DNA of 64,000 nt, from NCBI GenBank assembly GCA_964348725.1, contig CAYGDG010000001.1:1898-65897 (forward strand). The letters run 5' to 3'. The position numbers were made by a program, and so were the translations under genes. The notes beneath the pieces were generated by a model, which saw only the letters and a program-made list of their open reading frames with translations, did no database searches and had not been told where the DNA came from. Below are positions 1-52,461 of this stretch, piece after piece. The stretch's first letter is position 1, and every line of letters begins with the position of its first letter. The stretch comes from an uncultured Candidatus Saccharibacteria bacterium (GTDB lineage: Bacteria > Patescibacteriota > Minisyncoccia > Phycocordibacterales > UBA9973).

Positions 1-628
1 CTGCTTTAATTGTCATCTTTTCTGTTCTTGCCACACCTGTAGTTTCAGAAGTCACAAAAGATATTCTCTGTGGTGCTACACCCGCAGATACAGTACCATC
101 AACTTTGAAAAATACTCCCGCACTTCCTTGTGTTTCTACACCATCATAAATGGTACCAAGAAATGTAAGTACATCATCACCTGCAATTGGCACAGTCGGG
201 CTTGCTAAAGTTCCCCTAGAACGCGCACCTTTGTATACTGCTCTATTTCCTGCTGTATCTGAAGAAACTAAAATTGAAGTATCTACTTGTGTATTAGAAG
301 ATATTAAAAACTGCTCGCTAGTTATAAGAGAAGCTGCTGGAACATTACCATCAGAAATATGGAGTTGAACACTCGGGTTTGTAATTCCAATACCCACATT
401 TCCAGCAGTGTAATAATTGTCAGTTCCACTCGCAGTCCATACAGAACTCACAGAACAATTCGCGGATCCCGGAGTACACGATGGATTGAGCGTTTCACCC
501 GCATAAAAACCGTCCGATCCGGGACTATCGCTGGCGATAATTTTTATATTTGTCGCCACTACAACAAAAAACACAATACACATGGCCGTAGTCGCATGAC
601 GTTTTATAATGTGTTGTAAGAATTTCAT
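1..628 (-). CDS. Partial gene (3' end lies beyond position 1). Secreted surface protein with a tail-fibre-like GNVGIGT repeat; paralogue of the 38433..39665 product.
   Basis: Manual minus-strand translation from ATG at 626-628 gives MKFLQHIIKRHATTAMCIVFFVVVATNIKIIASDSPGSDGFYAGETLNPSCTPGSANCSVSSVWTASGTDNYYTAGNVGIGITNPSVQLHIS... The roughly 40-aa block ASDSPGSDGFYAGETLNPSCTPGSANCSVSSVWTASGT is identical to the 38433 protein. It has no stop in the window, so it is absent from the ORF track. Confidence 0.55.
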   Translation of the reverse strand, partial: MKFLQHIIKRHATTAMCIVFFVVVATNIKIIASDSPGSDGFYAGETLNPSCTPGSANCSVSSVWTASGTDNYYTAGNVGIGITNPSVQLHISDGNVPAASLITSEQFLISSNTQVDTSILVSSDTAGNRAVYKGARSRGTLASPTVPIAGDDVLTFLGTIYDGVETQGSAGVFFKVDGTVSAGVAPQRISFVTSETTGVARTEKMTIKA

Positions 629-690
629 ACCGGTACTTAGTATTATATAGTATAGCAGTATTATAAGGTATATCAAGACTTGGCTTGAAA

Positions 691-18899: not shown

Positions 18900-20387
18900 A
18901 TGGTGATGTACAAGACACATCATCGGTATTTATATGTGTGTATTTTTATGTTATTTTGCTTATGCAGTGCGCGTATTTCTTTTGCCGCAGTCATTATCAA
19001 TGAAATAAAATTAAGCCCCACAGCTGAGCGATTTATAGAGCTGTATAATACGGATGATGCTGAAATAGATCTGACCGGCTGGTATATGCAGAGGAAAACA
19101 GCGACTGGCGCGAGCTGGGGTTCGCTTGTTTCAAATCCGAATTTTGAAGGCAAGAAAATAGATGGCCATGGATATTTTTTGATTTCTCGGAGTGAGATGA
19201 TGGGCGCGGATATCGTATTTTCTTCGCTCACCCTGACTGAATCAAATTCCATACAATTAAAAAATGCTTCAGGTGATGTCGTGAATAAAATCGGCTGGGG
19301 TGAGGCAAATGATTGTGGCGGCACATGCGCGGGAAATCCAGGCGAAGGGGAAAGCATCGCAAAAATGGCTGATGCATGGGTGGCGGGCGTACCTACGCCG
19401 CATGCGACCAATGCTGCCGGTAGTGAGAATAACACTGAAAATACAAATATCGGCAGTACATCTTCCGACGATAGTTCCTCGGCAGCTGCGGTGCCTGAAG
19501 CAAAGGCCGAGACAAAAAAGAAAGAAGAGCTGAAAATACAGGTAAAAATTTCAGGAAAAAAATCGGGGCTTGCCGGCATACCCATGGAATTTGAAGCGCA
19601 AGCGACGGGGCTTTCGGGTGAGCCGCTATCTTCCGGAAAACTTTTCTGGAATTTCGGGGACGGGGATTCATTGGAAGCGCAGAGCTCGCAGAAATTCAGC
19701 CACACATATTATTATCCCGGTGACTATGCGCTGACGCTGGAATATGCGCAAAATCCGTACGGCTATACACCGGATGCGAGTCATAAGATCATCATAAAAA
19801 TTTCAGCTGTTTCAACCGTGATTTCGCGGGTGGGGGACGGCAAAGATTTTTTCGTGGAGCTTTCAAATCCTTCGGACTATGAGCAGGATATCTCGCGCTG
19901 GATGCTTATTTCCGGCGCAAAAAGTTTTTCTTTGCCGAAGAATACTATATTGCCAGCGAAAAAATCCATTATCATTTCCGGTAAAATTACAAAGTTCATG
20001 CCAGAAGATGCGGCAGGGTTACGATTGCTGACTTCTGCGGGCGAGACGGCATTTGATTATGGAGCATCTTTGGTTCCGGCAGTCATGGAAGTAATAGAAG
20101 AAGTGGTTGCAGAAAAGCCGCCCGAGCCGGAGGCTCGGGCGGCTATGTCTATTTCTGAAATAAGTGAAGCGGAAATCCCGGACGATTTACCTATCAGCGC
20201 TCTCAGTGCCGCTGTCGCTGGTGCTGACAGCATTGATGACAGCGGCACTCGTGGCGGGAGTAGCGGAGGAAGCTTGTTCTTCTGGCTTGGCGGCTTCGGT
20301 CTTCTTCTCTTCGCCGGTGCCGGCGTTTACTTCATCCGCCGGAGCGGCAGTGTCAGTACTGGCAGCGGGTTCAAACTCCAAGAATGA
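18900..20387 (+). CDS. Surface protein with two lamin-tail domains flanking a PKD-like domain, plus a C-terminal TM anchor
   Basis: AAVIINEIKLSPTAERFIELYNTDDAEIDLTGWYM matches the LTD consensus. A second copy is DFFVELSNPSDYEQDISRWML. FWNFGDGDS...YYYPGDYALTL is PKD-like. C-terminus GGSSGGSLFFWLGGFGLLLFAGAGVYFIRRSG. Confidence 0.6.
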   Translation: MVMYKTHHRYLYVCIFMLFCLCSARISFAAVIINEIKLSPTAERFIELYNTDDAEIDLTGWYMQRKTATGASWGSLVSNPNFEGKKIDGHGYFLISRSEMMGADIVFSSLTLTESNSIQLKNASGDVVNKIGWGEANDCGGTCAGNPGEGESIAKMADAWVAGVPTPHATNAAGSENNTENTNIGSTSSDDSSSAAAVPEAKAETKKKEELKIQVKISGKKSGLAGIPMEFEAQATGLSGEPLSSGKLFWNFGDGDSLEAQSSQKFSHTYYYPGDYALTLEYAQNPYGYTPDASHKIIIKISAVSTVISRVGDGKDFFVELSNPSDYEQDISRWMLISGAKSFSLPKNTILPAKKSIIISGKITKFMPEDAAGLRLLTSAGETAFDYGASLVPAVMEVIEEVVAEKPPEPEARAAMSISEISEAEIPDDLPISALSAAVAGADSIDDSGTRGGSSGGSLFFWLGGFGLLLFAGAGVYFIRRSGSVSTGSGFKLQE

Positions 20388-32720: not shown

Positions 32721-33623
32721 ATGAAAGAAATAAAGATTTTTACAGCAAAAAACTGGAAAGACTATGAAATGCTAGACACTGGTGAAGGCGAGAAGCTGGA
32801 GCGTTTTGGGCAATATGTTTTTGTGCGTCCATATGAAGAAGCGGTATGGAAAAAGACTTTAGATAAAAAAGAATGGGAAAATGCTGACGGGAAATTTTGG
32901 AGCTCCAAGACCGGTGCAAAAGCAGGTTGGGTTTTCCGCAAGGACAGTCCTCGCGGAAATTGCGAAAAGAAATGGGAGATGAGTTGGGGAGATGTGAAAT
33001 TCTTCGCTTCACCGACTTCTTTTCGCCACCTTTCTTTTTTCCCCGAGCAAGCGAGCCATTGGGAATTTATCAATGAGCAAATTAGTAAGGCAAAGAAACC
33101 AGTAAAGTTTTTAAATTTGTTCGGGTACACAGGAGTGGCGAGCCTCGTCGCTTTGCAAGCCGGCGCAGAAGTGACGCATGTGGACGCTTCAAAACAAAGC
33201 ATAGATTTACTAAAAGAAAATCAAAAACTCAATAGTCATTTGGGATTTGAAGATAAGCCTTTGCGAGTGATAGTGGACGATGTATTAAAATTTTTGGAGC
33301 GCGAAATAAAAAGAGGAAACACATATGATGCGGTGATCATGGATCCGCCAAAATTCGGCCGTGGTCCAAAAGGGGAGACGTGGAAAATAGAAGAAATGCT
33401 ACCAAAACTTTTAGAAAATGTTGCAAAAATTCTTTCTGAAAAACCGCTTTTTGTAATTCTAAATTCCTACGCAGTGGATTCCTCGTCTCTATCTTTATCA
33501 TATGCGTTAGAAGAATCTTTAAAATCTTTCGGCGGAAAAGTAGCGGCGGGCGAATTGTGTATTTTAGAAAAATCAAACTCTCGCGCAATTCCGCTTTCAA
33601 ATACTGCTATCTGGCAGGTTTGA
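32721..33623 (+). CDS. Class I SAM-dependent RNA methyltransferase (RlmI/COG1092-like)
   Basis: FLNLFGYTGVASLVALQAGAEVTHVDASKQS (motif I) and VIMDPPKFGRG (the DPPxF motif); 300 aa. Confidence 0.65.
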   Translation: MKEIKIFTAKNWKDYEMLDTGEGEKLERFGQYVFVRPYEEAVWKKTLDKKEWENADGKFWSSKTGAKAGWVFRKDSPRGNCEKKWEMSWGDVKFFASPTSFRHLSFFPEQASHWEFINEQISKAKKPVKFLNLFGYTGVASLVALQAGAEVTHVDASKQSIDLLKENQKLNSHLGFEDKPLRVIVDDVLKFLEREIKRGNTYDAVIMDPPKFGRGPKGETWKIEEMLPKLLENVAKILSEKPLFVILNSYAVDSSSLSLSYALEESLKSFGGKVAAGELCILEKSNSRAIPLSNTAIWQV

Positions 33624-33972
33624 TTTCTTCCTCAATTTCCTCCACGTCTTCCTGAATATCCTCCACATCCTCGGCGATTTCTTCCACATCTTTTTGGATT
33701 TCATCCACGTCTTCCTGAATTTCTTCTATATCTTCGGACACTTCTTCTAATTCTTTAGAGTGTTGGTTTACCGTCATCTGGATAAAAATGGAAAGATATA
33801 TGGCTTCAAGTGAAACAATCGTAGTGAGAATGAGCAGAATATCCGCCACTGCCACTCCAAAAAATCGCAATGAAAAAATACCGATAAAAAATATCGTATG
33901 GAGGGCGATGGATGCCGGCGAGCCTATGAAGCGGGTGAGCTTTTTAGAAAATTCTTCAAATTTCTTATCCAT
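33607..33972 (-). CDS. Small membrane protein (DUF1003-like core) with a C-terminal acidic tandem-repeat tail
   Basis: Two TM helices followed by SIFIQMTVNQHSKELEE. The tail is EEVSEDIEEIQEDVDEIQKDVEEIAEDVEDIQEDVEEIEEEIK, with an 8-aa periodicity. Confidence 0.4.
   Translation of the reverse strand: MDKKFEEFSKKLTRFIGSPASIALHTIFFIGIFSLRFFGVAVADILLILTTIVSLEAIYLSIFIQMTVNQHSKELEEVSEDIEEIQEDVDEIQKDVEEIAEDVEDIQEDVEEIEEEIKPAR
33620..33760. repeat. Imperfect 24-nt tandem repeat, about 5-6 units, inside a coding region
   Basis: The units ttcctccacgtcttcctgaatatc, ctccacatcctcggcgatttcttc, cacatctttttggatttcatccac and gtcttcctgaatttcttctatatc encode the acidic E-D-x-E-E-I-Q repeats of the minus-strand ORF. 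Confidence 0.6.
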
Positions 33973-38386: not shown

Positions 38387-38432
38387 TTTTGAAAATATAT
38401 GATATAATATATAGACCTAATAAATTATATTT

Positions 38433-39665
38433 ATGCATTTAATCAGACACATCATACACAAGCATTGGAAAACAGCTTTCTTTCTGCTTTTTTTCATTTT
38501 AGTCGGTACTAATCTACATAGTATCGCCAGCGATAGTCCCGGATCGGACGGTTTTTATGCGGGTGAAACGCTCAATCCGTCGTGTACTCCGGGATCCGCG
38601 AATTGCTCGGTGAGTTCTGTATGGACCGCATCGGGAACAAGTGCTTATTACAGTGCTGGAAATGTAGGAATAGGTACTACAACTCCTACAAAATTATTGG
38701 ATGTAAATGGCACTTCTATTTTTAGAGGATCTACTACTTTTCAAGACATAAACCCTGAACTTATAACGACAACTACTAATGGCTACGTAGCTACTTCATA
38801 CGATTCCACCTCTTCAGGTGGCGGAGCACAAAATGTATTCCGTAGAGCAAATGGAACAGAAGCTACACCCACCGCAATTACAAATGGAATGACACTCGGT
38901 TCGTTTTCTTTCCGAGGACATACAGGCAGTGCTTTTACAGGAAGTAAGGGATATTTTGAAGTAACAGCGACAGAAAACTGGAGTCCATCTGCAAATGGCA
39001 CTGATATGACGTGGGCGATAACGCCAAATGGTTCTACAACCCTAGACTATGCTATGACATTATCGCAAGCTGGGTATTTGGGTATAGGCACGAGAACACC
39101 AGAAGCTAAACTACACGTTTCAGGTGCAGATGCGACTATCGGTGCTTTTGTAGAAAATACTTCTTCAACTTCAGCCAGATACCCGCTTACTTATATCGCA
39201 AACTATGCAGGTGCAACCACAGGACATCCATTGACTGTGATGGCAAATGCCAGAGGCACGAAAGCTTCTCCGACAGCTAGTCAATCGGGAGATTCTTTTG
39301 GAATGTATGTTTTCAAAGGATATGATGGTGCTGCTTTTATAGACGGCGCAAGGATAGCAGCTTTTGCTCCGGCGACGTGGAGCGTAGGAAGCACTCCGAC
39401 AGATTTGAGATTTTATACTACAGATACAAGTGGAACTTATGCAGAAAGAATGAGGATTATGGAGAATGGAAATTTGGGAATTGGTACTACTGCACCATCT
39501 ACCAAATTACATGTAGTGGGCTCTGGCGCCACTGCCACTACTCCAGCCGTACGAATAGAAAATCTTCCGACGTCCGCGCCATCGGGTACGAATGAAGGCA
39601 TCGTCTGCGTAGATGATGCCGGCGCGTTATGGAATGATTCTGACGGTACGGAAGATTGTATGTAG
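38433..39665 (+). CDS. Secreted surface protein with three phage-tail-fibre-like G(N/Y)(V/L)GIGT repeats
   Basis: Signal/TM N-terminus. Repeats GNVGIGTTTPTKLLDVNGT, GYLGIGTRTPEAKLHVSGA and GNLGIGTTAPSTKLHVVGSG. C-terminus VCVDDAGALWNDSDGTEDCM. Confidence 0.5.
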   Translation: MHLIRHIIHKHWKTAFFLLFFILVGTNLHSIASDSPGSDGFYAGETLNPSCTPGSANCSVSSVWTASGTSAYYSAGNVGIGTTTPTKLLDVNGTSIFRGSTTFQDINPELITTTTNGYVATSYDSTSSGGGAQNVFRRANGTEATPTAITNGMTLGSFSFRGHTGSAFTGSKGYFEVTATENWSPSANGTDMTWAITPNGSTTLDYAMTLSQAGYLGIGTRTPEAKLHVSGADATIGAFVENTSSTSARYPLTYIANYAGATTGHPLTVMANARGTKASPTASQSGDSFGMYVFKGYDGAAFIDGARIAAFAPATWSVGSTPTDLRFYTTDTSGTYAERMRIMENGNLGIGTTAPSTKLHVVGSGATATTPAVRIENLPTSAPSGTNEGIVCVDDAGALWNDSDGTEDCM

Positions 39666-44755: not shown

Positions 44756-46585
44756 ATGGACTTAAAATACATCAGGAATTTTTCAATTATCGCCCATATT
44801 GACCACGGCAAGAGCACTCTTGCGGACAGGATGCTGGAAATCACTCACACGATTGAGGAGCGCAAAATGCGCGACCAGGTGCTAGATTCTATGGAGCTGG
44901 AACGCGAAAGGGGAATTACGATTAAGATGCAACCCGTCAGAATGGAATACACCACCCCCAGCCCCCTCCTTGGAAAAGGAGGGGAGCAAAAATACGTTTT
45001 GAACCTTATAGACACGCCGGGACACATAGACTTCTCATACGAAGTATCCCGCGCTCTGAAGGCCGTGGAAGGCTCTATACTGCTCGTAGACTCTACGCAG
45101 GGCGTACAGGCACAGACATTGACTACTTTGCAAATGGCGCGCGATGGCGGGCTTAAAATCATTCCAGTGCTTTCAAAAATAGACTCGCCGCTTTCCCGCG
45201 TGGATGATGTAAAAGAAGAAGTGGTAAAGCTCCTTGATTGCGATCCGGATGAGATATTGCTCGTCTCCGGACGCACCGGCGAAGGCGTGGCCGAGCTCTT
45301 GGCCGAAGTCATCAAGCGCGTGCCGCCACCGCAGGAATCATATCAGGGCGATAATAATTTGCGCGCGCTCGTTTTTGATTTTAAATATTCCAACCATCGC
45401 GGCGTCATCGTGTATGTACGCGTGCTGGATGGCAAAGTGCGAAAAGGGGACAGCCTCATCTTCTCCGCTTCAAATGAAAAATTTAACTCGCTTGAAGCCG
45501 GTACATTTTCCCCAGAAGAAACGCCGCGCGAATTTTTGGCCGCCGGAGATACCGGCTACCTGGTAACCGGCATCAAGAAGCCGGGCATAGCCTCAGTGGG
45601 AGATACCATTACCATGCTCAAAAATCCCTTGCCCGCGCTTGGCGGATATATGCAGCCGCGGCCGGTCGTGTGGGCATCTATTTTCCCGGAAGACGCGGAT
45701 GAATTCAATGAATTGAAAGCGGCCCTCGGAAAATTAAAGCTTTCTGATTCGGCATTTTCATACGAAGAAGAATCCTCTGGTTCGCTCGGGCGCGGTTTTC
45801 GCTGCGGCTTCCTTGGCATGCTCCACTTGGAAATAATCACCGAGCGCTTGAAAAGAGAATTTGATTTAGAGCTCGTCATCACCACGCCGTCCATCACCTA
45901 CGAGGTGACGATGATAAATGGAAAGACAGAGAAAGTATACTCACCATATTTTTTCCCGGATGATGGGTTTATCAAGCAGGTCTTTGAGCCGTGGGTGGCG
46001 GTGAAAATAATCACGCCGGCACCGTACCTCGGTGGTATCATGCAATTACTTTTTGATCACGAGGCAGAAGTAGGGGAAACAGAAAACTTCGGCGATGCGC
46101 GTTCAGCAGTATCCGTAAAAATGCCGCTTCGCGAGCTGATGCGGAACTTTTTTGATGAATTAAAAAGCGTCTCTTCCGGCTATGGTTCAATTTCATATGA
46201 AATAGGCGAGATGCGCGAGGCGAATGTAACACGTTTAGATATTTTAGTGGCGGACGAAGCCGTGCCGGCATTTTCCCGCGTCGTATCCAAAAAGCGCGTG
46301 GAAGAAGAAGCGGAGAACGCCGTAGAAAAATTACATACTATTTTACCAAAGCAGATGTTTACGACGAAGATCCAGGGCAAAGCATTAGGCAGAATAATCT
46401 CATCCCGCACTATCCAGGCATTCAAAAAAGATGTCACCCAGCACATGTACGGCGGCGACATCACCCGCAAGATGAAGCTCCGCGAGAAGCAGAAGAAAGG
46501 CAAGAAGAAGATGAAAGACCGCGGACGCGTAAATATCCCTCAGGACGTGTTCCTGAAGATGATGCGCTCGGGGGATAATAAATAA
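44756..46585 (+). CDS. lepA: Elongation factor 4 (LepA)
   Basis: IRNFSIIAHIDHGKSTLADRML, DSMELERERGITIK and NLIDTPGHIDF motifs, plus the LepA-specific C-terminal domain. It contains a small in-frame GC-rich hairpin insertion. Confidence 0.9.
   Translation: MDLKYIRNFSIIAHIDHGKSTLADRMLEITHTIEERKMRDQVLDSMELERERGITIKMQPVRMEYTTPSPLLGKGGEQKYVLNLIDTPGHIDFSYEVSRALKAVEGSILLVDSTQGVQAQTLTTLQMARDGGLKIIPVLSKIDSPLSRVDDVKEEVVKLLDCDPDEILLVSGRTGEGVAELLAEVIKRVPPPQESYQGDNNLRALVFDFKYSNHRGVIVYVRVLDGKVRKGDSLIFSASNEKFNSLEAGTFSPEETPREFLAAGDTGYLVTGIKKPGIASVGDTITMLKNPLPALGGYMQPRPVVWASIFPEDADEFNELKAALGKLKLSDSAFSYEEESSGSLGRGFRCGFLGMLHLEIITERLKREFDLELVITTPSITYEVTMINGKTEKVYSPYFFPDDGFIKQVFEPWVAVKIITPAPYLGGIMQLLFDHEAEVGETENFGDARSAVSVKMPLRELMRNFFDELKSVSSGYGSISYEIGEMREANVTRLDILVADEAVPAFSRVVSKKRVEEEAENAVEKLHTILPKQMFTTKIQGKALGRIISSRTIQAFKKDVTQHMYGGDITRKMKLREKQKKGKKKMKDRGRVNIPQDVFLKMMRSGDNK
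44951..44987 (+). repeat. GC-rich hairpin element ACCACCCCCAGCCCCCTCCTT-ggaaa-AAGGAGGGGAGC, in-frame inside lepA
   Basis: Near-identical to 51730..51765 inside tsaD. The 9-bp stem CCCCTCCTT/AAGGAGGGG is perfect. Confidence 0.55.
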
Positions 46586-49096: not shown

Positions 49097-51224
49097 GAGG
49101 GGTTTTCCCGTCCATGGCGGGCCATTTTTCCACCATGAGTAAATTTTTTTCAGCGGATGGCAAGAGCGACCAGATCTCTTCCGTGACGAATGGCATAAAA
49201 GGGTGGAGCACTTTCAGGCAATCTTTCCAGAGGGGCAGCAGCGCGGCTTTCATCTCTGGATTTTTTTTACTTTCTTCTACTATCTCATCAGCAAACCTAT
49301 GCCAGATGTAATGATAAATTTTTTCAGACGCCAAGTGAAAGCGGTATTGTTCCATGTCGCTGGTGATGTCTTCCGCGATTTTTCTAAATTCTTCGGCAAG
49401 TAACTTGGTACTTGGAGTACTGAGTTCACTTGGTACTCCAAGTACCAAGTCAGCATTTTCCAAAATATACCGCGTGATATTCCAGATCTTATTCGCAAAA
49501 TTCTTATAGCCTTTTATTTTATTTTCATCTATCTTGCTATCGGTCCCTGGAGCAGTGCCCACGATCAGTGCCATACGCCCCGCATCCGCGCCGAATTTAT
49601 CCGCGATTTCCAGCGGATCTATGCCGTTATTCAAAGACTTGCTCATCTTCTGTCCTTTCGCATCGCGCACCGTGCCGTGCAAATATACATTTTTGAAAGG
49701 CACTTCACCGAGGGCGTATTGGCTCATCAGCACCATACGAGCTACCCAGAAGAAAAGAATCTCATAGCCGGTTTCTAATACATCCGTCGGGTGGAAAGTT
49801 TTTAAATCTTTGTTTTCATTTGGCCAGCCGAGCGTGGAAAAAGTCCACATACCGGAAGAGAACCAGGTGTCCAGCGTGTCATCATCCTGCTCCCAATCCG
49901 AACCGGGGGATTCAATACCGACAAAAATTTCCTCGCCCTTATACCACACCGGCACGCGGTGACCGTACCATATCTGGCGGCTGATGCACCAGTCGCGCAA
50001 GTTTTCTATCCAATGGAAATATGTTTTGGAAAAATGCTCTGGGATTATTTTTATATCGCCGTTTTCAAACGGCTCGCGCATGAGGTCTTTGAGCGTCTTC
50101 TCGCCACGGGCAGGAATCGGCTTATTTACATTCACGAACCACTGGAGCTTTGGCAACGGCTCTATGATGCCGCCCGTGCGCTCTGCTGTACCGATATTTT
50201 GCTTCACATCTTCTTCTTTTTCCAAAAGATTTTGTTCACGCAGCCAAGCTACTACTATTTCCCGCGCTTCGGTAGTTTTTTTGCCGAGCATATCTGCGCC
50301 CACGGTCATCTTCGCATATTCATTTATCACCTGCGGGCGGGGGAGGCTGTGCCGGTCCGCTATTTCCCAGTCAATCATAGAATGCGCGGGGGTCACACCG
50401 AGCGCGCCGGTGCCGAAATCTTTTTCCACTGCCTCATCCGCGATGATTTTTATATGGAGCGGTACGCCGCAGAATTCCAAGTCGTATTCCTTGCCGATAA
50501 ATTCCTGATAGCGCGGGTCTTCCGGATGCACGGCTACGGCTGTATCGCCGACTTTTGTTTCTGGTCTGGTGGTAGAAATAGAAATAGGAAAATCTTTTGT
50601 ATATTTAAAAGTATAGAGCTTCGCGGTGCGCTCTTCGTATACGATTTCGTCGTCGGAAATAGTGGTCTGTCCTTTCGGATCCCAGTTCACGATGCGATGC
50701 CCGCGGTAAATGAGCCCGTCATCATACATCTGCTTGAACATCGTGTTCACTGCGAGATTTCTTTTTTCATCCAGCGTAAATGCCTCGCGCGACCAATCAC
50801 AAGAAGCGCCCATAATACGCATCTGTGAAGTCATGGTGCTGCGATTTTCTTCCACGAATACATCTATTCTTTTGAGCAGCTCTGCTCTGCCCAGATCGTG
50901 GCGAGATTTACCTTCTTTTTTATATATTTCTTTTTCTACTTTTGATTGCGTAGCGATGGAAGCATGGTCAGTGCCGGGTAGCCATAGAGTTTTGAAGCCC
51001 CTCATTCTTTTATAGCGAATCATTATATCTTCTAGCGTCAAAAATAGCGCATGACCCATATGTAGCACCCCCGTGGCATTTGGAGGAGGCATCATGATCG
51101 TAAAAGGTTCTGTCCTGTTGCCCGGCAGATTATCAGGATTAAAAAAACCGCTCTTTTCCCAGAGCTCGTACATACGGGATTCGGTATTTTTCGGGTCGTA
51201 TGGTTTCAGGAATTTCTCATCCAT
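49089..51224 (-). CDS. valS: Valyl-tRNA synthetase (compact form lacking the C-terminal coiled-coil)
   Basis: PPPNATGVLHMGHALFLTLEDIMIRYKRMRG and KMSKSLNNGIDP motifs. ORF 49089..51263. The start MDEKFLKPYDP at 51224 aligns with canonical ValRS N-termini and avoids overlap with tsaD. Confidence 0.9.
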   Translation of the reverse strand: MDEKFLKPYDPKNTESRMYELWEKSGFFNPDNLPGNRTEPFTIMMPPPNATGVLHMGHALFLTLEDIMIRYKRMRGFKTLWLPGTDHASIATQSKVEKEIYKKEGKSRHDLGRAELLKRIDVFVEENRSTMTSQMRIMGASCDWSREAFTLDEKRNLAVNTMFKQMYDDGLIYRGHRIVNWDPKGQTTISDDEIVYEERTAKLYTFKYTKDFPISISTTRPETKVGDTAVAVHPEDPRYQEFIGKEYDLEFCGVPLHIKIIADEAVEKDFGTGALGVTPAHSMIDWEIADRHSLPRPQVINEYAKMTVGADMLGKKTTEAREIVVAWLREQNLLEKEEDVKQNIGTAERTGGIIEPLPKLQWFVNVNKPIPARGEKTLKDLMREPFENGDIKIIPEHFSKTYFHWIENLRDWCISRQIWYGHRVPVWYKGEEIFVGIESPGSDWEQDDDTLDTWFSSGMWTFSTLGWPNENKDLKTFHPTDVLETGYEILFFWVARMVLMSQYALGEVPFKNVYLHGTVRDAKGQKMSKSLNNGIDPLEIADKFGADAGRMALIVGTAPGTDSKIDENKIKGYKNFANKIWNITRYILENADLVLGVPSELSTPSTKLLAEEFRKIAEDITSDMEQYRFHLASEKIYHYIWHRFADEIVEESKKNPEMKAALLPLWKDCLKVLHPFMPFVTEEIWSLLPSAEKNLLMVEKWPAMDGKTPHD

Positions 51225-51243: not shown

Positions 51244-52422
51244 TTACAAGGACATCCCGCCATCAGCGCGGAAGTTTTTCTTTGTATTCGCGCGGCGGAA
51301 ATACCCAGTCAAAGCAATCATCAGCGCATTATCAGCAGAAAGCGAGCCGGTAGGGAATATCGGCTTGATGCCGTGCTGTTTTGCCGCGGCAGTGAGCGTC
51401 TTTCGCAAGTGCCTGTTCGCGGACACGCCGCCAGCCACTATGAGCGTCTTCGCGCCGTATTTTTCTATGGCTTTCATCGTCTTATGCGTCAGCGTTTCCA
51501 CCACGGCATCCTCAAATTCTTTAGCTATCGCCATTTTCATTTTGTCATTTTGCAAAATGTTTGAATGTTCTTTTTTGAGATCGCGGATTAAATACAATAC
51601 TGCCGTCTTCAGTCCGGAAAAAGAGAAATCAAAATTTTTCGTGTACATCATCGGGCGTGGGAGTTTGATTTCCTCTCCTCCTTTTTGAGGAGGAGTGCCC
51701 TTCAGGGCGAGGTGGTGATTTTTTGAATTACCACCCCCAACCCCCTCCTTATCAAGGAGGGGAGCTTTCCGTGCTAATTCTGCCAATCTTGAAATTTCAG
51801 GTCCGCCCGGATACGGCAATTCCATCATCCGCGCCACTTTATCAAATGCTTCGCCGGCGGCATCATCCAGCGTCTGGCCTATTTTTTTATATTTCAAAAA
51901 GCTTTCAGAAAGCACGAGTTCCGTGTGTCCGCCGGAGACGAGGAGTGAGAGCACCGGGAATTTCCATTTTGGCAACGAAAAAGTTTTCTTATTCGCAATG
52001 ACGGAAAGAATATGCCCCTCCATATGGTTCACCGGTATCACCGGCACGCCCCATTTTTTGGAAAGTTCTTTGGCAAAGACGATCCCTGTCCACAGCGCGG
52101 GTTCTAATCCCGGCCCGGAAGTTACGGCTATCATATCTACCCCGTTAGAGGCAGAGGGTCGCTGCGATCCCTCGCGGCCTCTAACGGGGTCTATTTTCAT
52201 CCCTGCTTTTTTGAGCGCTTTTGCTAGCACTATCGGCAAGTTCTTCATATGCTCGCGTTTGGCCAGCATCGGAAAAACTCCGCCGTATGGGGAGTGGATC
52301 GCCGTCTGTGAGGATACGATATTTGCCAGGACTTTGAAATTTTTACCCTTTACTTCCAATATGCTGATGCCGGTGTCGTCGCAGGAAGTTTCTATGCCCA
52401 AGACAATAGTCTTTTTTGTCAT
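51244..52422 (-). CDS. tsaD: tRNA N6-adenosine threonylcarbamoyltransferase TsaD (Kae1/Gcp family), with a roughly 30-aa in-frame insertion
   Basis: MTKKTIVLGIETSCDDTGISIL N-terminus, GHTELV, and LPRPMMYTKNFDFSFSGLKTAV. ORF 51244..52461, with the internal start at 52422. Confidence 0.85.
   Translation of the reverse strand: MTKKTIVLGIETSCDDTGISILEVKGKNFKVLANIVSSQTAIHSPYGGVFPMLAKREHMKNLPIVLAKALKKAGMKIDPVRGREGSQRPSASNGVDMIAVTSGPGLEPALWTGIVFAKELSKKWGVPVIPVNHMEGHILSVIANKKTFSLPKWKFPVLSLLVSGGHTELVLSESFLKYKKIGQTLDDAAGEAFDKVARMMELPYPGGPEISRLAELARKAPLLDKEGVGGGNSKNHHLALKGTPPQKGGEEIKLPRPMMYTKNFDFSFSGLKTAVLYLIRDLKKEHSNILQNDKMKMAIAKEFEDAVVETLTHKTMKAIEKYGAKTLIVAGGVSANRHLRKTLTAAAKQHGIKPIFPTGSLSADNALMIALTGYFRRANTKKNFRADGGMSL
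51670..51765 (+). repeat. Composite GC-rich hairpin element (three stem-loops) in-frame inside tsaD. The 3' unit ACCACCCCCAACCCCCTCCTT-atca-AAGGAGGGGAGC matches the lepA element.
   Basis: ctcctcc-ttttt-gaggaggag; ggtggtgattttttgaattaccacc; cccctcctt-atca-aggagggg. It encodes LLDKEGVGGGNSKNHHLALKGTPPQKGGEE on the minus strand. Confidence 0.55.
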
Positions 52423-52461
52423 ATCGCGATTATACCTTTTTTCTGGTAGAATGGAAGCCAT

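What the first reader, a model, noticed from the sequence alone, without database searches (positions are those of the whole stretch)
51670..51765. Composite triple-hairpin insertion in tsaD; its 3' unit matches the lepA element (copy 2)
On the + strand, ctcctcc-ttttt-gaggaggag, ggtggtgattttttgaattaccacc and ACCACCCCCAACCCCCTCCTT-atca-AAGGAGGGGAGC lie in tandem. On the coding (minus) strand they add about 30 residues (LLDKEGVGGGNSKNHHLALKGTPPQKGGEE) just before the conserved LPRPM...FDFSFSGLK block of TsaD, replacing about 6 residues in canonical TsaD. The last unit is identical to the lepA element except for one A/G and the 4-5 nt loop. Two essential genes carrying the same element in-frame implies selection for frame preservation (3n length) after insertion. 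It could also indicate a function at RNA level, such as mRNA structure or an RNase site.
Basis: seen in the sequence. Interest (0 to 1): 0.65.

Follow-up and report, generated by a model that had tools for sequence, protein, structure and literature searches.

The report
Mobile hairpin repeat inside essential genes
The extra 31 codons in this candidate-phyla bacterium's tsaD gene are one copy of a small hairpin-forming DNA repeat, found across many bacterial phyla, that in these gene-dense genomes survives as translated in-frame loops inside essential proteins, much like the palindromic elements of Rickettsia.

Summary
Window 51673-51765 is a 93-nt (31-codon) in-frame insert in tsaD. It folds into four tandem hairpins, not three (z = -5 to -6). 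Its 3' unit matches a 37-nt insert in lepA.

The "composite" is one bipartite element: a half-unit (hairpin plus G-tract), a spacer, and an inverted, modified half-unit. The lepA copy is a solo half-unit read on the opposite strand.

- The half-unit occurs in many phyla, including cultured isolates, where examined copies lie outside genes.
- In Patescibacteria the element sits in frame in at least 28 host-protein clusters, 12 checked by profile (FtsK, TopA, PolA, AtpD, LepA and others).
- All 33 full in-ORF copies are in one orientation, and 29 of 33 keep the reading frame.
- The same protein loops are occupied repeatedly by different elements, orientations and frames.
- Carriers are not monophyletic, two close relatives carry different cassettes, and the nearest relative lacks both inserts.
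- Codons inside the insert are 95% identical across five genomes, against 46% in the rest of tsaD.

Best reading: a selfish REPIN-like repeat tolerated as a disordered loop. What mobilises it is unknown. I found no description for Patescibacteria.

The parts
51673..51765 (-). Full bipartite element (called E1 here), 93 nt = 31 codons, in frame in tsaD. It encodes APLLDKEGVGGGNSKNHHLALKGTPPQKGGE.
   Evidence: Absent from L245 tsaD and from solved TsaD proteins. AlphaFold2 pLDDT is below 50 for residues 236-261. The 93-nt span is my own codon count on the sequence.
51742..51762 (-). Hairpin A of the left half-unit: CCCCTCCTT / loop / AAGGAGGGG, 9 bp.
   Evidence: This is the unit shared with lepA and with the cross-phylum matches.
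51709..51741 (-). G-tract (sense GTTGGGGGTGGT), A-rich spacer and C-tract (CACCACCTC). The two tracts pair to form the central hairpin, which carries a conserved G.T wobble on the sense strand.
   Evidence: Pair table: 53 of 56 copies have G.T at that pair.
51697..51708 (-). Small 4-bp hairpin (sense GCCC-tgaa-GGGC), specific to the right half-unit.
   Evidence: Compensatory variants GTCC/GGAC and GGTC/GACC occur in other copies.
51675..51695 (-). Hairpin B of the right half-unit: CTCCTCCT / loop / AGGAGGAG, 8 bp.
   Evidence: This was part of the pattern used for the metagenome scan.
44951..44987 (+). Solo left half-unit in lepA, read on the complementary strand relative to the tsaD copy. It encodes TTPSPLLGKGGEQ, a net +24 nt against the closest relative.
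51244..52461 (-). Host gene tsaD (405 aa).
   Evidence: TIGR03723, 349.9 bits against a cut-off of 296.1. Also.
44756..46585 (+). Host gene lepA (609 aa).
   Evidence: TIGR01393, 738.7 bits. Also.

Best explanation
The tsaD insert is one full-length copy of a small, GC-rich, hairpin-forming dispersed repeat. I call it E1.

Its basic module is about 36 nt: a 9-bp hairpin (CCCCTCCTT-loop-AAGGAGGGG) followed by a G-tract (G-NN-GGGGGTGGT). A full element is two such modules in inverted orientation around a short spacer. In Patescibacteria the second module also carries a 4-bp hairpin. This is the architecture of a REPIN (a REP doublet) or a very small MITE. The lepA insert is a solo module in the other orientation.

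Shown:
- The module occurs in many phyla. The non-Patescibacteria copies whose gene context I examined lie outside genes, just downstream of a stop codon.
- In gene-dense Patescibacteria the element lies inside many housekeeping genes, in frame and without stop codons.
- The same permissive loops are occupied again and again.
- Carriage does not follow gene phylogeny.
- The nucleotide sequence is conserved beyond what the coding requires.

Inferred:
- Copies arrive by transposition, or by recombination or gene conversion from other copies or from foreign alleles.
- Selection removes every copy that breaks the frame or lands in a structured part of a protein.
- The survivors are translated as disordered Gly/Pro-rich surface loops of no particular function, as proposed for Rickettsia palindromic elements.
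- Sequence homogeneity reflects the element's own requirements for propagation, meaning recognition of the hairpin and adjacent tract, and not the needs of the host protein.

The mobilising enzyme is unknown. A single-strand hairpin-recognising HUH/Y1 transposase of the RAYT or IS200 type is the most likely candidate by analogy only.
For: Anatomy:
- Four hairpins, z = -5.0 as RNA and -6.2 as DNA.
- The same ordered arrangement in 56 distinct Patescibacteria-type copies. Stems are nearly invariant and variation is confined to loops and the spacer.

Dispersal:
- Hits include Acidobacteriota, Bacteroidota, Ignavibacteria, Armatimonadota, Desulfobulbaceae, Nitrospirota, Planctomycetota-type (Phycisphaera), Alpha- and Gammaproteobacteria and several Patescibacteria lineages.
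- Cultured isolates are among them: Pedobacter, Larkinella, Erythrobacter, Adhaeribacter, Pontibacter and Saccharicrinis.
- Many non-Patescibacteria copies are inverted doublets.
- In two Pedobacter species the copy lies 26 nt after the stop codon of the same gene.

Coding context:
- 69 copies lie in ORFs of at least 150 aa, falling into 28 host-protein clusters.
- Ten cluster representatives were scanned against Pfam: FtsK, PheT, TopA, RsmA, MurB, Tgt, PGM, LepA, AtpD and PolA. TsaD and LepA were confirmed in the window by NCBIfam. That makes 12 profile checks in all, with LepA counted in both sets. The rest (LigA, MnmA, UvrA/B, RNase R, MurI, MurC, IF-2, PheS) were identified by eye.
- All 33 full in-ORF copies are in one orientation. 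29 of 33 share one length class mod 3, against 2 of 12 outside long ORFs.

Nucleotides before peptide:
- Identical amino acids use identical codons in 95% of pairs inside the insert and 46% elsewhere in tsaD, across five genomes.
- The same C-tract DNA is read as HHLAL, PPRPS or TTSPF in different copies.

Recurrent, recent acquisition:
- E1 carriers are scattered in the tree of 120 TsaD cores. They are no closer to the window protein (0.666 identity) than non-carriers (0.70).
- L002 and L244 are 84% identical over the aligned tsaD DNA, and visibly higher outside the two cassette sites. They carry unrelated cassettes at the same site.
- The closest relative found, L245, lacks both tsaD inserts. 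Its lepA differs from the window's by one internal indel, which is the element.
- About three quarters of the 120 LepA orthologues have an empty loop at that site. The rest hold sense, antisense or full E1 copies, or other elements.

Tolerance: insert residues 236-261 have pLDDT below 50 and no secondary structure, in a model with mean pLDDT 81.7.
Against: - No transposase, target-site duplication or target motif was found. The longest shared flank word is 3.63 nt observed against 3.67 in the control. Mobility is therefore inferred from distribution and not shown.
- Near-identity of about 30 nt across phyla is unusual for REP/REPIN families, which are lineage-specific.
- The 33:0 orientation bias of full copies and the conserved sense-strand G.T wobble are not predicted by a purely selfish DNA model. 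The bias can be partly explained, because two of the three antisense frames of this copy contain TGA stop codons in the A-rich loops (my own reading of the sequence).
- Re-occupation of identical sites could also mean targeting, which this model does not require.
- Translation of the insert is inferred from open frames. No proteomic data were examined.
Copy numbers and the true extent of variation are unknown.
Confidence: 0.68

Rival explanations
1. The hairpins are a functional cis-acting RNA structure in the mRNA. They might control translation pausing for co-translational folding, mRNA stability or processing. Selection would keep them at these sites for that reason.
For: - Nucleotide conservation exceeds codon constraint: 0.95 against 0.46.
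- Variation is confined to loops, and a few stem pairs show compensatory changes.
- 53 of 56 copies keep a G.T wobble that pairs only on the sense strand.
- All 33 full in-ORF copies are in the sense orientation.
- TsaD site B is occupied by some palindrome in about 88% of 120 orthologues.
Against: - Half-units work in either orientation: lepA in the window against other LepA orthologues, and TsaD site A in L002 against L003.
- The same element sits in unrelated genes and in intergenic DNA in phyla with very different biology.
- Carriage is polyphyletic, and the closest relative lacks it.
- Stems are invariant in the way of a young or homogenised repeat family. They do not covary like an old RNA.
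- No Rfam family matches.
Confidence: 0.12
2. The element is not itself mobile. Particular loops are recombination cassettes. Whole cassettes would move between alleles by homologous recombination, using the very conserved flanking codons after DNA uptake from other Patescibacteria. Copies in other genes would arise by rare illegitimate events.
For: - The cassette is swapped cleanly between close relatives, with conserved flanks.
- Chimeric cassettes exist. P0033 joins an E1 left half to the right part of a different family.
- No target-site duplication was found.
Against: - Near-identical copies sit in at least 28 host-protein clusters that share no flanking homology.
- Copies also lie in intergenic DNA in other phyla. 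Allele exchange cannot produce that.
- Solo halves and two permuted arrangements exist.
Confidence: 0.12
3. The encoded peptide is a selected functional module, such as a flexible linker or an interaction motif, recruited into many proteins.
For: The frame P(L/S)LxKEGxGGG strongly predominates among in-ORF copies, also outside Patescibacteria.
Against: - The same DNA is read in several frames and on both strands in different proteins.
- Synonymous sites are conserved, which is not expected for a protein motif.
- The region is predicted to be disordered.
- The insert is absent from close relatives of the same essential proteins.
Confidence: 0.04
4. It is an assembly or sequencing artefact, such as a chimeric or low-coverage insertion.
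For: None found. The source is probably a metagenome-assembled genome.
Against: - Independent assemblies from many projects carry the element in the same genes with intact frames.
- It is present in genomes of cultured isolates.
- Variation between copies is structured: loops vary and stems do not.
Confidence: 0.01

Closest known systems
Rickettsia palindromic elements (RPE). Ogata et al. 2000 and 2002, as summarised in PMC10969869.
   Same: Both are repeated palindromic DNA elements inserted in frame into many unrelated housekeeping genes of a small, gene-dense genome. The genes stay intact, and the insert is thought to be translated in a position compatible with the protein fold.
   Different: - RPEs are about 100-150 bp, restricted to Rickettsia, and each family encodes a conserved peptide.
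- E1 is 36 nt (half) or about 85-100 nt (full).
- Its module is shared across many phyla.
- It is read in several frames and both orientations.
- It repeatedly re-occupies the same loops.
- I made no sequence comparison with RPE consensus sequences.
REP sequences and REPINs mobilised by RAYT transposases (PMC3116915, PMC3337134, PMC3733652).
   Same: Both have a short GC-rich imperfect palindrome as the unit. Doublets occur in inverted orientation around a short spacer, and singlets also occur. In the non-Patescibacteria copies examined, the element lies just downstream of a gene.
   Different: - No RAYT was identified.
- There is no invariant GTAG or CGTC head. GTAG appears only in some copies, in the variable linker.
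- REP/REPIN families are lineage-specific and vertically inherited, whereas this module is nearly identical across phyla.
- REPs are extragenic by definition, whereas in Patescibacteria these copies are intragenic.
Bacterial MITEs such as Correia, ERIC and BOX (review PMC10969869).
   Same: Both are small, non-autonomous-looking repeats with inverted-repeat ends. They are sometimes intragenic and can form in-frame fusions.
   Different: No target-site duplication was detected, and no parent insertion sequence is known. At 36-100 nt the element is much smaller than most MITEs.
Coding palindromes in organelle genes, for example Nematomorpha mitochondria (PMC6649704).
   Same: Both are hairpin-forming inverted repeats embedded in conserved protein-coding genes and kept in frame.
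   Different: The organellar cases are gene-specific, long, perfect inverted repeats. They are not a dispersed family shared among genes and taxa.

Membership tests
Protein-coding palindromic repeats of the Rickettsia RPE type | A repeated palindromic DNA element present at many loci | tested here: met
71 distinct full copies.
Protein-coding palindromic repeats of the Rickettsia RPE type | Inserted in frame in unrelated housekeeping genes that remain intact | tested here: met
   28 host-protein clusters. Ten representatives were scanned against Pfam, and TsaD and LepA were confirmed in the window by NCBIfam. 29 of 33 full in-ORF copies preserve the frame.
Protein-coding palindromic repeats of the Rickettsia RPE type | Located where the protein fold tolerates an insertion | tested here: met
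   pLDDT below 50 and no secondary structure for residues 236-261, within a confident core; the insert falls in a gap relative to solved TsaD. Tested for TsaD only.
Protein-coding palindromic repeats of the Rickettsia RPE type | About 100-150 bp, Rickettsia-specific families with a conserved encoded peptide | tested here: not met
   The element is 36 or 93 nt. The host is Patescibacteria. Several reading frames are used. It resembles RPEs in behaviour but is not a member of the RPE families.
REP / REPIN-RAYT | A 20-40 nt GC-rich imperfect palindrome as the unit; inverted doublets with a spacer, plus singlets | tested here: met
   (for example L009, L018, L020, L053, L088). The window lepA copy is a singlet.
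REP / REPIN-RAYT | Conserved GTAG or CGTC tetranucleotide at one end (PMC3733652) | tested here: not met
   The linker between the hairpin and the G-tract varies (GTT, GTA, GCA, GCT and others). GTAG is present only in a subset and is not at an end.
REP / REPIN-RAYT | Extragenic location | tested here: inconclusive
   Extragenic in the Pedobacter loci examined. 72 of 102 non-Patescibacteria matches lie outside stop-to-stop ORFs of at least 200 aa. But 18 of 30 Patescibacteria matches in species-representative genomes and 33 of 45 full metagenome copies are inside long ORFs.
REP / REPIN-RAYT | A cognate single-copy RAYT (Y1/HUH transposase) in the same genome | not tested
   Only fragments of 2-22 kb of each genome were held, and no whole-genome protein census was possible. 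No transposase-like gene was noticed next to the copies examined.
REP / REPIN-RAYT | Lineage-specific, vertically inherited families | tested here: not met
   The same module occurs in many phyla. Carriage in TsaD is polyphyletic.
MITE | Target-site duplications flanking the element | tested here: not met
   Flank-to-flank longest common substring is 3.63 observed against 3.67 in the shuffled control, over 56 copies.
MITE | A parent insertion sequence with the same terminal inverted repeats | not tested
   No search for a longer autonomous element was possible with the fragments held.
Any described RNA family (Rfam 15) | Match to a covariance model at its gathering score | tested here: not met
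   (whole window: only 5 tRNAs). (region at E up to 10: only chance-level hits). (five other loci: none).

The most novel reading that the evidence does not exclude
The palindromes are not merely tolerated. Under this reading, specific loops of essential Patescibacteria proteins are maintained docking sites for strand-specific structured nucleic-acid modules.

Observations that fit:
- TsaD site B is filled in about 88% of 120 orthologues, by several families in several frames.
- Nucleotides are conserved beyond codon constraint.
- All 33 full in-ORF copies are in one orientation.

Such modules would either act on the mRNA or be placed there by a site-directed homing or cassette-exchange mechanism. 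The roughly 30-nt module shared across phyla would then be the recognition site of a widespread, still unidentified enzyme.
Probability: 0.12. Interest if true: 0.85.

Novelty: new variant of a known kind. Interest (0 to 1): 0.6.

Why it matters
1. Gene prediction, protein-family alignments and phylogenies of Patescibacteria marker genes contain many unexplained insertions. If E1-like repeats are a common source, and TsaD sites A and B suggest several other families behave the same way, these can be masked or modelled.

2. [quoted passage not shown] It again arises in reduced, gene-dense genomes. That supports the view that lack of intergenic space pushes repeats into permissive protein loops.

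3. A roughly 30-nt module that is nearly identical from Acidobacteriota to Patescibacteria implies either very wide horizontal spread or a conserved recognising enzyme. Either would be worth finding.

4. The filled and empty sites in close relatives give a natural experiment on how much insertion essential enzymes tolerate.

Tried and rejected
- Rfam, at gathering scores on the whole window, at E up to 10 on the region, and on five other loci. Nothing relevant.
- BLAST of the element against phage and plasmid collections. No match, though the low-complexity filter may have contributed. A pattern scan of viral contigs gave only 4 hits, so there is no evidence that a phage or plasmid carries it.
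- Target-site duplication and target-motif search on 56 copies. No signal.
- Looking for a transposase next to copies in Pedobacter loci. Only ordinary genes were there.
- Vertical inheritance of the tsaD insert. Rejected by the tree, by the cassette swap between close relatives and by the empty sites in L245.
- Three independent elements in tandem. Rejected because the ordered arrangement recurs as one unit.
- Exact look-up of the window's own TsaD (P0001) in the assembly index failed. Two orthologue contigs had no DNA available.
- My first regular expression for full copies was too strict and was replaced.
- Five literature searches found no description of such elements in Patescibacteria. 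The library lacks most subscription journals, so this absence is weak evidence.
Full report
**Observation**

The window comes from a Patescibacteria (candidate phyla radiation) genome of the Nomurabacteria/Paceibacteria type. This follows from the source names of the closest TsaD and LepA homologues.

tsaD is 51244-52461 on the minus strand and encodes 405 aa. It matches TIGR03723 at 349.9 bits against a cut-off of 296.1, and the match splits in two around residue 230.

The region folds into four consecutive hairpins, not three. In + strand coordinates these are 51675-51695, 51697-51708, 51711-51735 and 51742-51762. The sense RNA folds at -54 kcal/mol (z = -5.0, 0 of 200 shuffles as good). As DNA, z = -6.2.

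By my own codon count on the sequence, the insert runs from GCT to GAG, 51765 down to 51673. That is 93 nt or 31 codons, encoding APLLDKEGVGGGNSKNHHLALKGTPPQKGGE.

The insert is missing from several comparators:
- solved TsaD proteins, where about 28 residues are unaligned against 8iey_A;
- 14 of 120 orthologues;
- the closest relative found, L245, whose TsaD is 365 aa.

The lepA copy (44951-44987) differs from the tsaD 3' unit by one A/G and the loop. Both copies lie on the + strand while the genes are on opposite strands. The element is therefore translated from opposite strands in the two proteins.

**What the "composite" is**

I scanned one genome per species with the hairpin-plus-G-tract pattern (23 specified bases). 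Chance expectation is well below one by my own arithmetic.

The hits span many phyla:
- Acidobacteriota/Terriglobia
- Bacteroidota (Pedobacter, Chitinophaga, Larkinella, Adhaeribacter, Pontibacter, Saccharicrinis)
- Ignavibacteria/Kapaibacterium
- Armatimonadota
- Desulfobulbaceae and Geobacter
- Nitrospirota
- Phycisphaera
- Thioploca/Thiomargarita
- Erythrobacter
- several Patescibacteria lineages

Several are genomes of cultured isolates, which rules out an artefact of metagenome assembly.

Lining up the flanks gives a module: CYCC-CCTCCTT-loop-AAGGAGGGGG-NN-GGGGGTGGT. In many non-Patescibacteria loci a second module follows in inverted orientation, 20-40 nt downstream.

The tsaD insert has this same bipartite plan:
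- hairpin A plus the G-tract;
- an A-rich spacer;
- a 4-bp hairpin;
- hairpin B.

The same ordered arrangement recurs in 56 distinct Patescibacteria-type copies. Stems are almost invariant and differences are confined to loops and the spacer. There are a few compensatory pairs, and 53 of 56 copies share a G.T wobble on the sense strand.

So the tsaD insert is one element, and the lepA insert is a solo half. A permuted arrangement, with the C-tract half first, also exists. It is seen in AtpD, PheT, FtsK, PheS and IF-2, and inside a roughly 240-nt repeat in other genomes.

**Where it sits**

- 45 matches are full elements. Of these, 33 lie in ORFs of at least 150 aa, and all 33 have the G-tract strand as the sense strand.
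- 29 of the 33 share one length class modulo 3 (79, 85, 88, 91 or 97 nt by my boundary definition).
- Only 2 of the 12 full copies outside long ORFs fall in that class.

The 69 in-ORF copies fall into 28 host-protein clusters. Ten representatives were confirmed by Pfam: FtsK, PheT, TopA, RsmA, MurB, Tgt, phosphoglucomutase, LepA, ATP synthase beta and DNA polymerase I. Others I identified by eye: LigA, MnmA, UvrA, UvrB, RNase R, MurI, MurC, IF-2, PheS and CCA-adding enzyme.

In-frame copies in the same reading frame also occur in some Ignavibacteria and Bacteroidota genes. In two Pedobacter species, by contrast, the copy lies 26 nt after the stop codon of the same gene, like an ordinary extragenic palindrome.

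**Nucleotides, not peptide**

I made a codon alignment of tsaD from the window and four other genomes with 62-66% protein identity to it. Pairs of identical amino acids use the identical codon in 95% of cases inside the insert. Elsewhere in the gene the figure is 46%, and it is 43% at invariant residues.

Different copies read the same C-tract DNA as HHLAL, PPRPS or TTSPF. They are brought back into frame by 1-2 nt differences in loop or spacer length.

The AlphaFold2 model has mean pLDDT 81.7. Insert residues 236-261 score below 50 and have no secondary structure, and the second insertion site is also low. This fits a disordered surface loop.

**Recurrent, recent occupation of the same loops**

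Among 120 TsaD orthologues, the site is filled in about 88%. Fifteen carry E1. At least 51 carry a different palindrome family that is read in five or more frames. A few carry other families, and one is a chimera of E1 with another family.

E1 carriers are scattered over the neighbour-joining tree built from 320 core columns. They are no closer to the window protein (0.666 identity) than proteins without any insert (0.70).

Two contigs from one sample, L002 and L244, are 84% identical over the aligned tsaD DNA, and visibly more so outside the two cassette sites. They carry E1 and the other family respectively at this site. The upstream site is filled in one and empty in the other.

The closest relative found is L245, from GCA_023267435.1. 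It is syntenic with the window, and its LepA is 91% identical. It lacks both tsaD inserts. Its lepA differs from the window's by a single internal indel, which is the element (net +24 nt).

Among 120 LepA orthologues, about three quarters have an empty five-residue loop at that site. The rest carry a sense half, an antisense half (as here), a full E1, or other elements. The same pattern holds in other hosts, with the same site carrying a different element or orientation:
- RNase R
- LigA
- MnmA
- TsaD site A

**Mechanism**

These data fit a selfish dispersed repeat. It behaves like a REPIN or very small MITE in its architecture, and like a Rickettsia palindromic element in its relation to host genes.

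Distribution, frame filtering, orientation bias, turnover and nucleotide-level conservation are shown. Mobility itself, translation of the insert and the nature of the enzyme are inferred.

I found no target-site duplication and no target motif. I found no transposase next to the copies examined. There is no sign of phage or plasmid carriage and no Rfam family.

The clean cassette swap and the chimeras suggest that recombination between copies, or between alleles, contributes alongside any transposition.

The one-sided orientation of full copies and the sense-strand wobble keep an mRNA-level role alive as a minority view. Part of the bias may simply reflect TGA stop codons in two of the three antisense frames of this copy, which I read directly from the sequence.

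**Comparison with known systems and novelty**

The phenomenon, palindromic repeats living in frame inside housekeeping genes of a reduced genome, has been known from Rickettsia since 2000 (summarised in PMC10969869). The doublet architecture matches REPINs (PMC3116915).

Several defining features are not met, however:
- The size and taxon do not match the RPE families.
- There is no GTAG or CGTC head (PMC3733652).
- No RAYT was found.
- The family is not lineage-specific.
- There is no target-site duplication.

I therefore class it as a new variant of a known kind and not as a member of any named family. Five literature searches found no description of such elements in Patescibacteria. The library omits most subscription journals, so this is weak evidence.

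**Limits**

Copy numbers and the real degree of cross-phylum conservation are not known.
- Gene context in GC-rich genomes was judged from stop-to-stop ORFs, which overestimates coding.
- The tree is a quick distance tree.
- Only TsaD was modelled structurally.

Noticed in passing
window 52139-52190 (minus strand, inside tsaD): A second in-frame palindrome in tsaD. It has 14-bp arms (ACCCCGTTAGAGGC / GCCTCTAACGGGGT) plus an inner stem and encodes DPVRGREGSQRPSASNGV. The same 'DPVRS...SNG(I/V)D' family occupies this site in at least seven other TsaD orthologues. Other orthologues carry E1-like variants there in either orientation, and L245 lacks it.
   Followed up: partly
window 49405-49448 (minus strand, inside valS): A 19-bp hairpin (-30.9 kcal/mol) lies in frame in valyl-tRNA synthetase (...LVLGVPSELSTPSTK...). 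Five of its residues are absent from the valS of the closest relative, L245. It looks like a third palindrome family in an essential gene.
   Followed up: partly
window 20109-20152 and 20205-20248 (ORF 18900-20387, + strand): Two very stable hairpins (-31.3 and -28.6 kcal/mol; one has a 13-bp stem of 85% GC) lie inside a 495-aa ORF of unknown function.
   Followed up: no
TsaD orthologues P0012-P0120, site equivalent to window 51673-51765: A different palindrome family fills the same TsaD loop in at least 51 of 120 orthologues. It is read in five or more frames (EQIFQQKNC, RKFSAENFC, LQQFSSKKI, GIFQQKNIR, NFSAEKFTQ). From back-translating these peptides its core is roughly CAGAAAATTTTCTG. I did not read that core from DNA.
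   Followed up: partly
L002:2788-4017 versus L244:3001-4137: Two tsaD alleles from one metagenome sample are 84% identical over the aligned DNA, and more so outside the cassette sites. They carry unrelated cassettes at the same site. The upstream site is filled in one and empty in the other. L002 has a 12-nt direct repeat (AAGAACCTCACC) at the upstream site.
   Followed up: partly
L025, L026, L029, L038, L041, L042, L048, L069, L071, L100, L119: A roughly 240-nt MITE-like repeat is bounded by AGAGGCTCTTGCAAAACC inverted repeats. It contains both half-units in permuted order (C-tract half first). It is present many times in three genomes (CAZWZF01, JBIJDE01, CAZNLA01).
   Followed up: partly
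L043:21-53 and L089:4397-4429: In Pedobacter fastidiosus and P. frigidisoli the half-unit lies 26 nt downstream of the stop codon of the same 376-aa gene. I took this gene to be a 4-hydroxyphenylpyruvate dioxygenase by eye, without a profile check. The shared position suggests vertical inheritance of an extragenic copy within that genus.
   Followed up: no
window 379-629 and 38432-38682: A 251-nt inverted repeat, 77% complementary, has its arms 37.8 kb apart.
   Followed up: no
window 33620-33751: A 21-nt tandem repeat of about six copies (TCTTCCTSAATWTCYTCCACR-like) lies next to the end of ORF 32721-33623.
   Followed up: no
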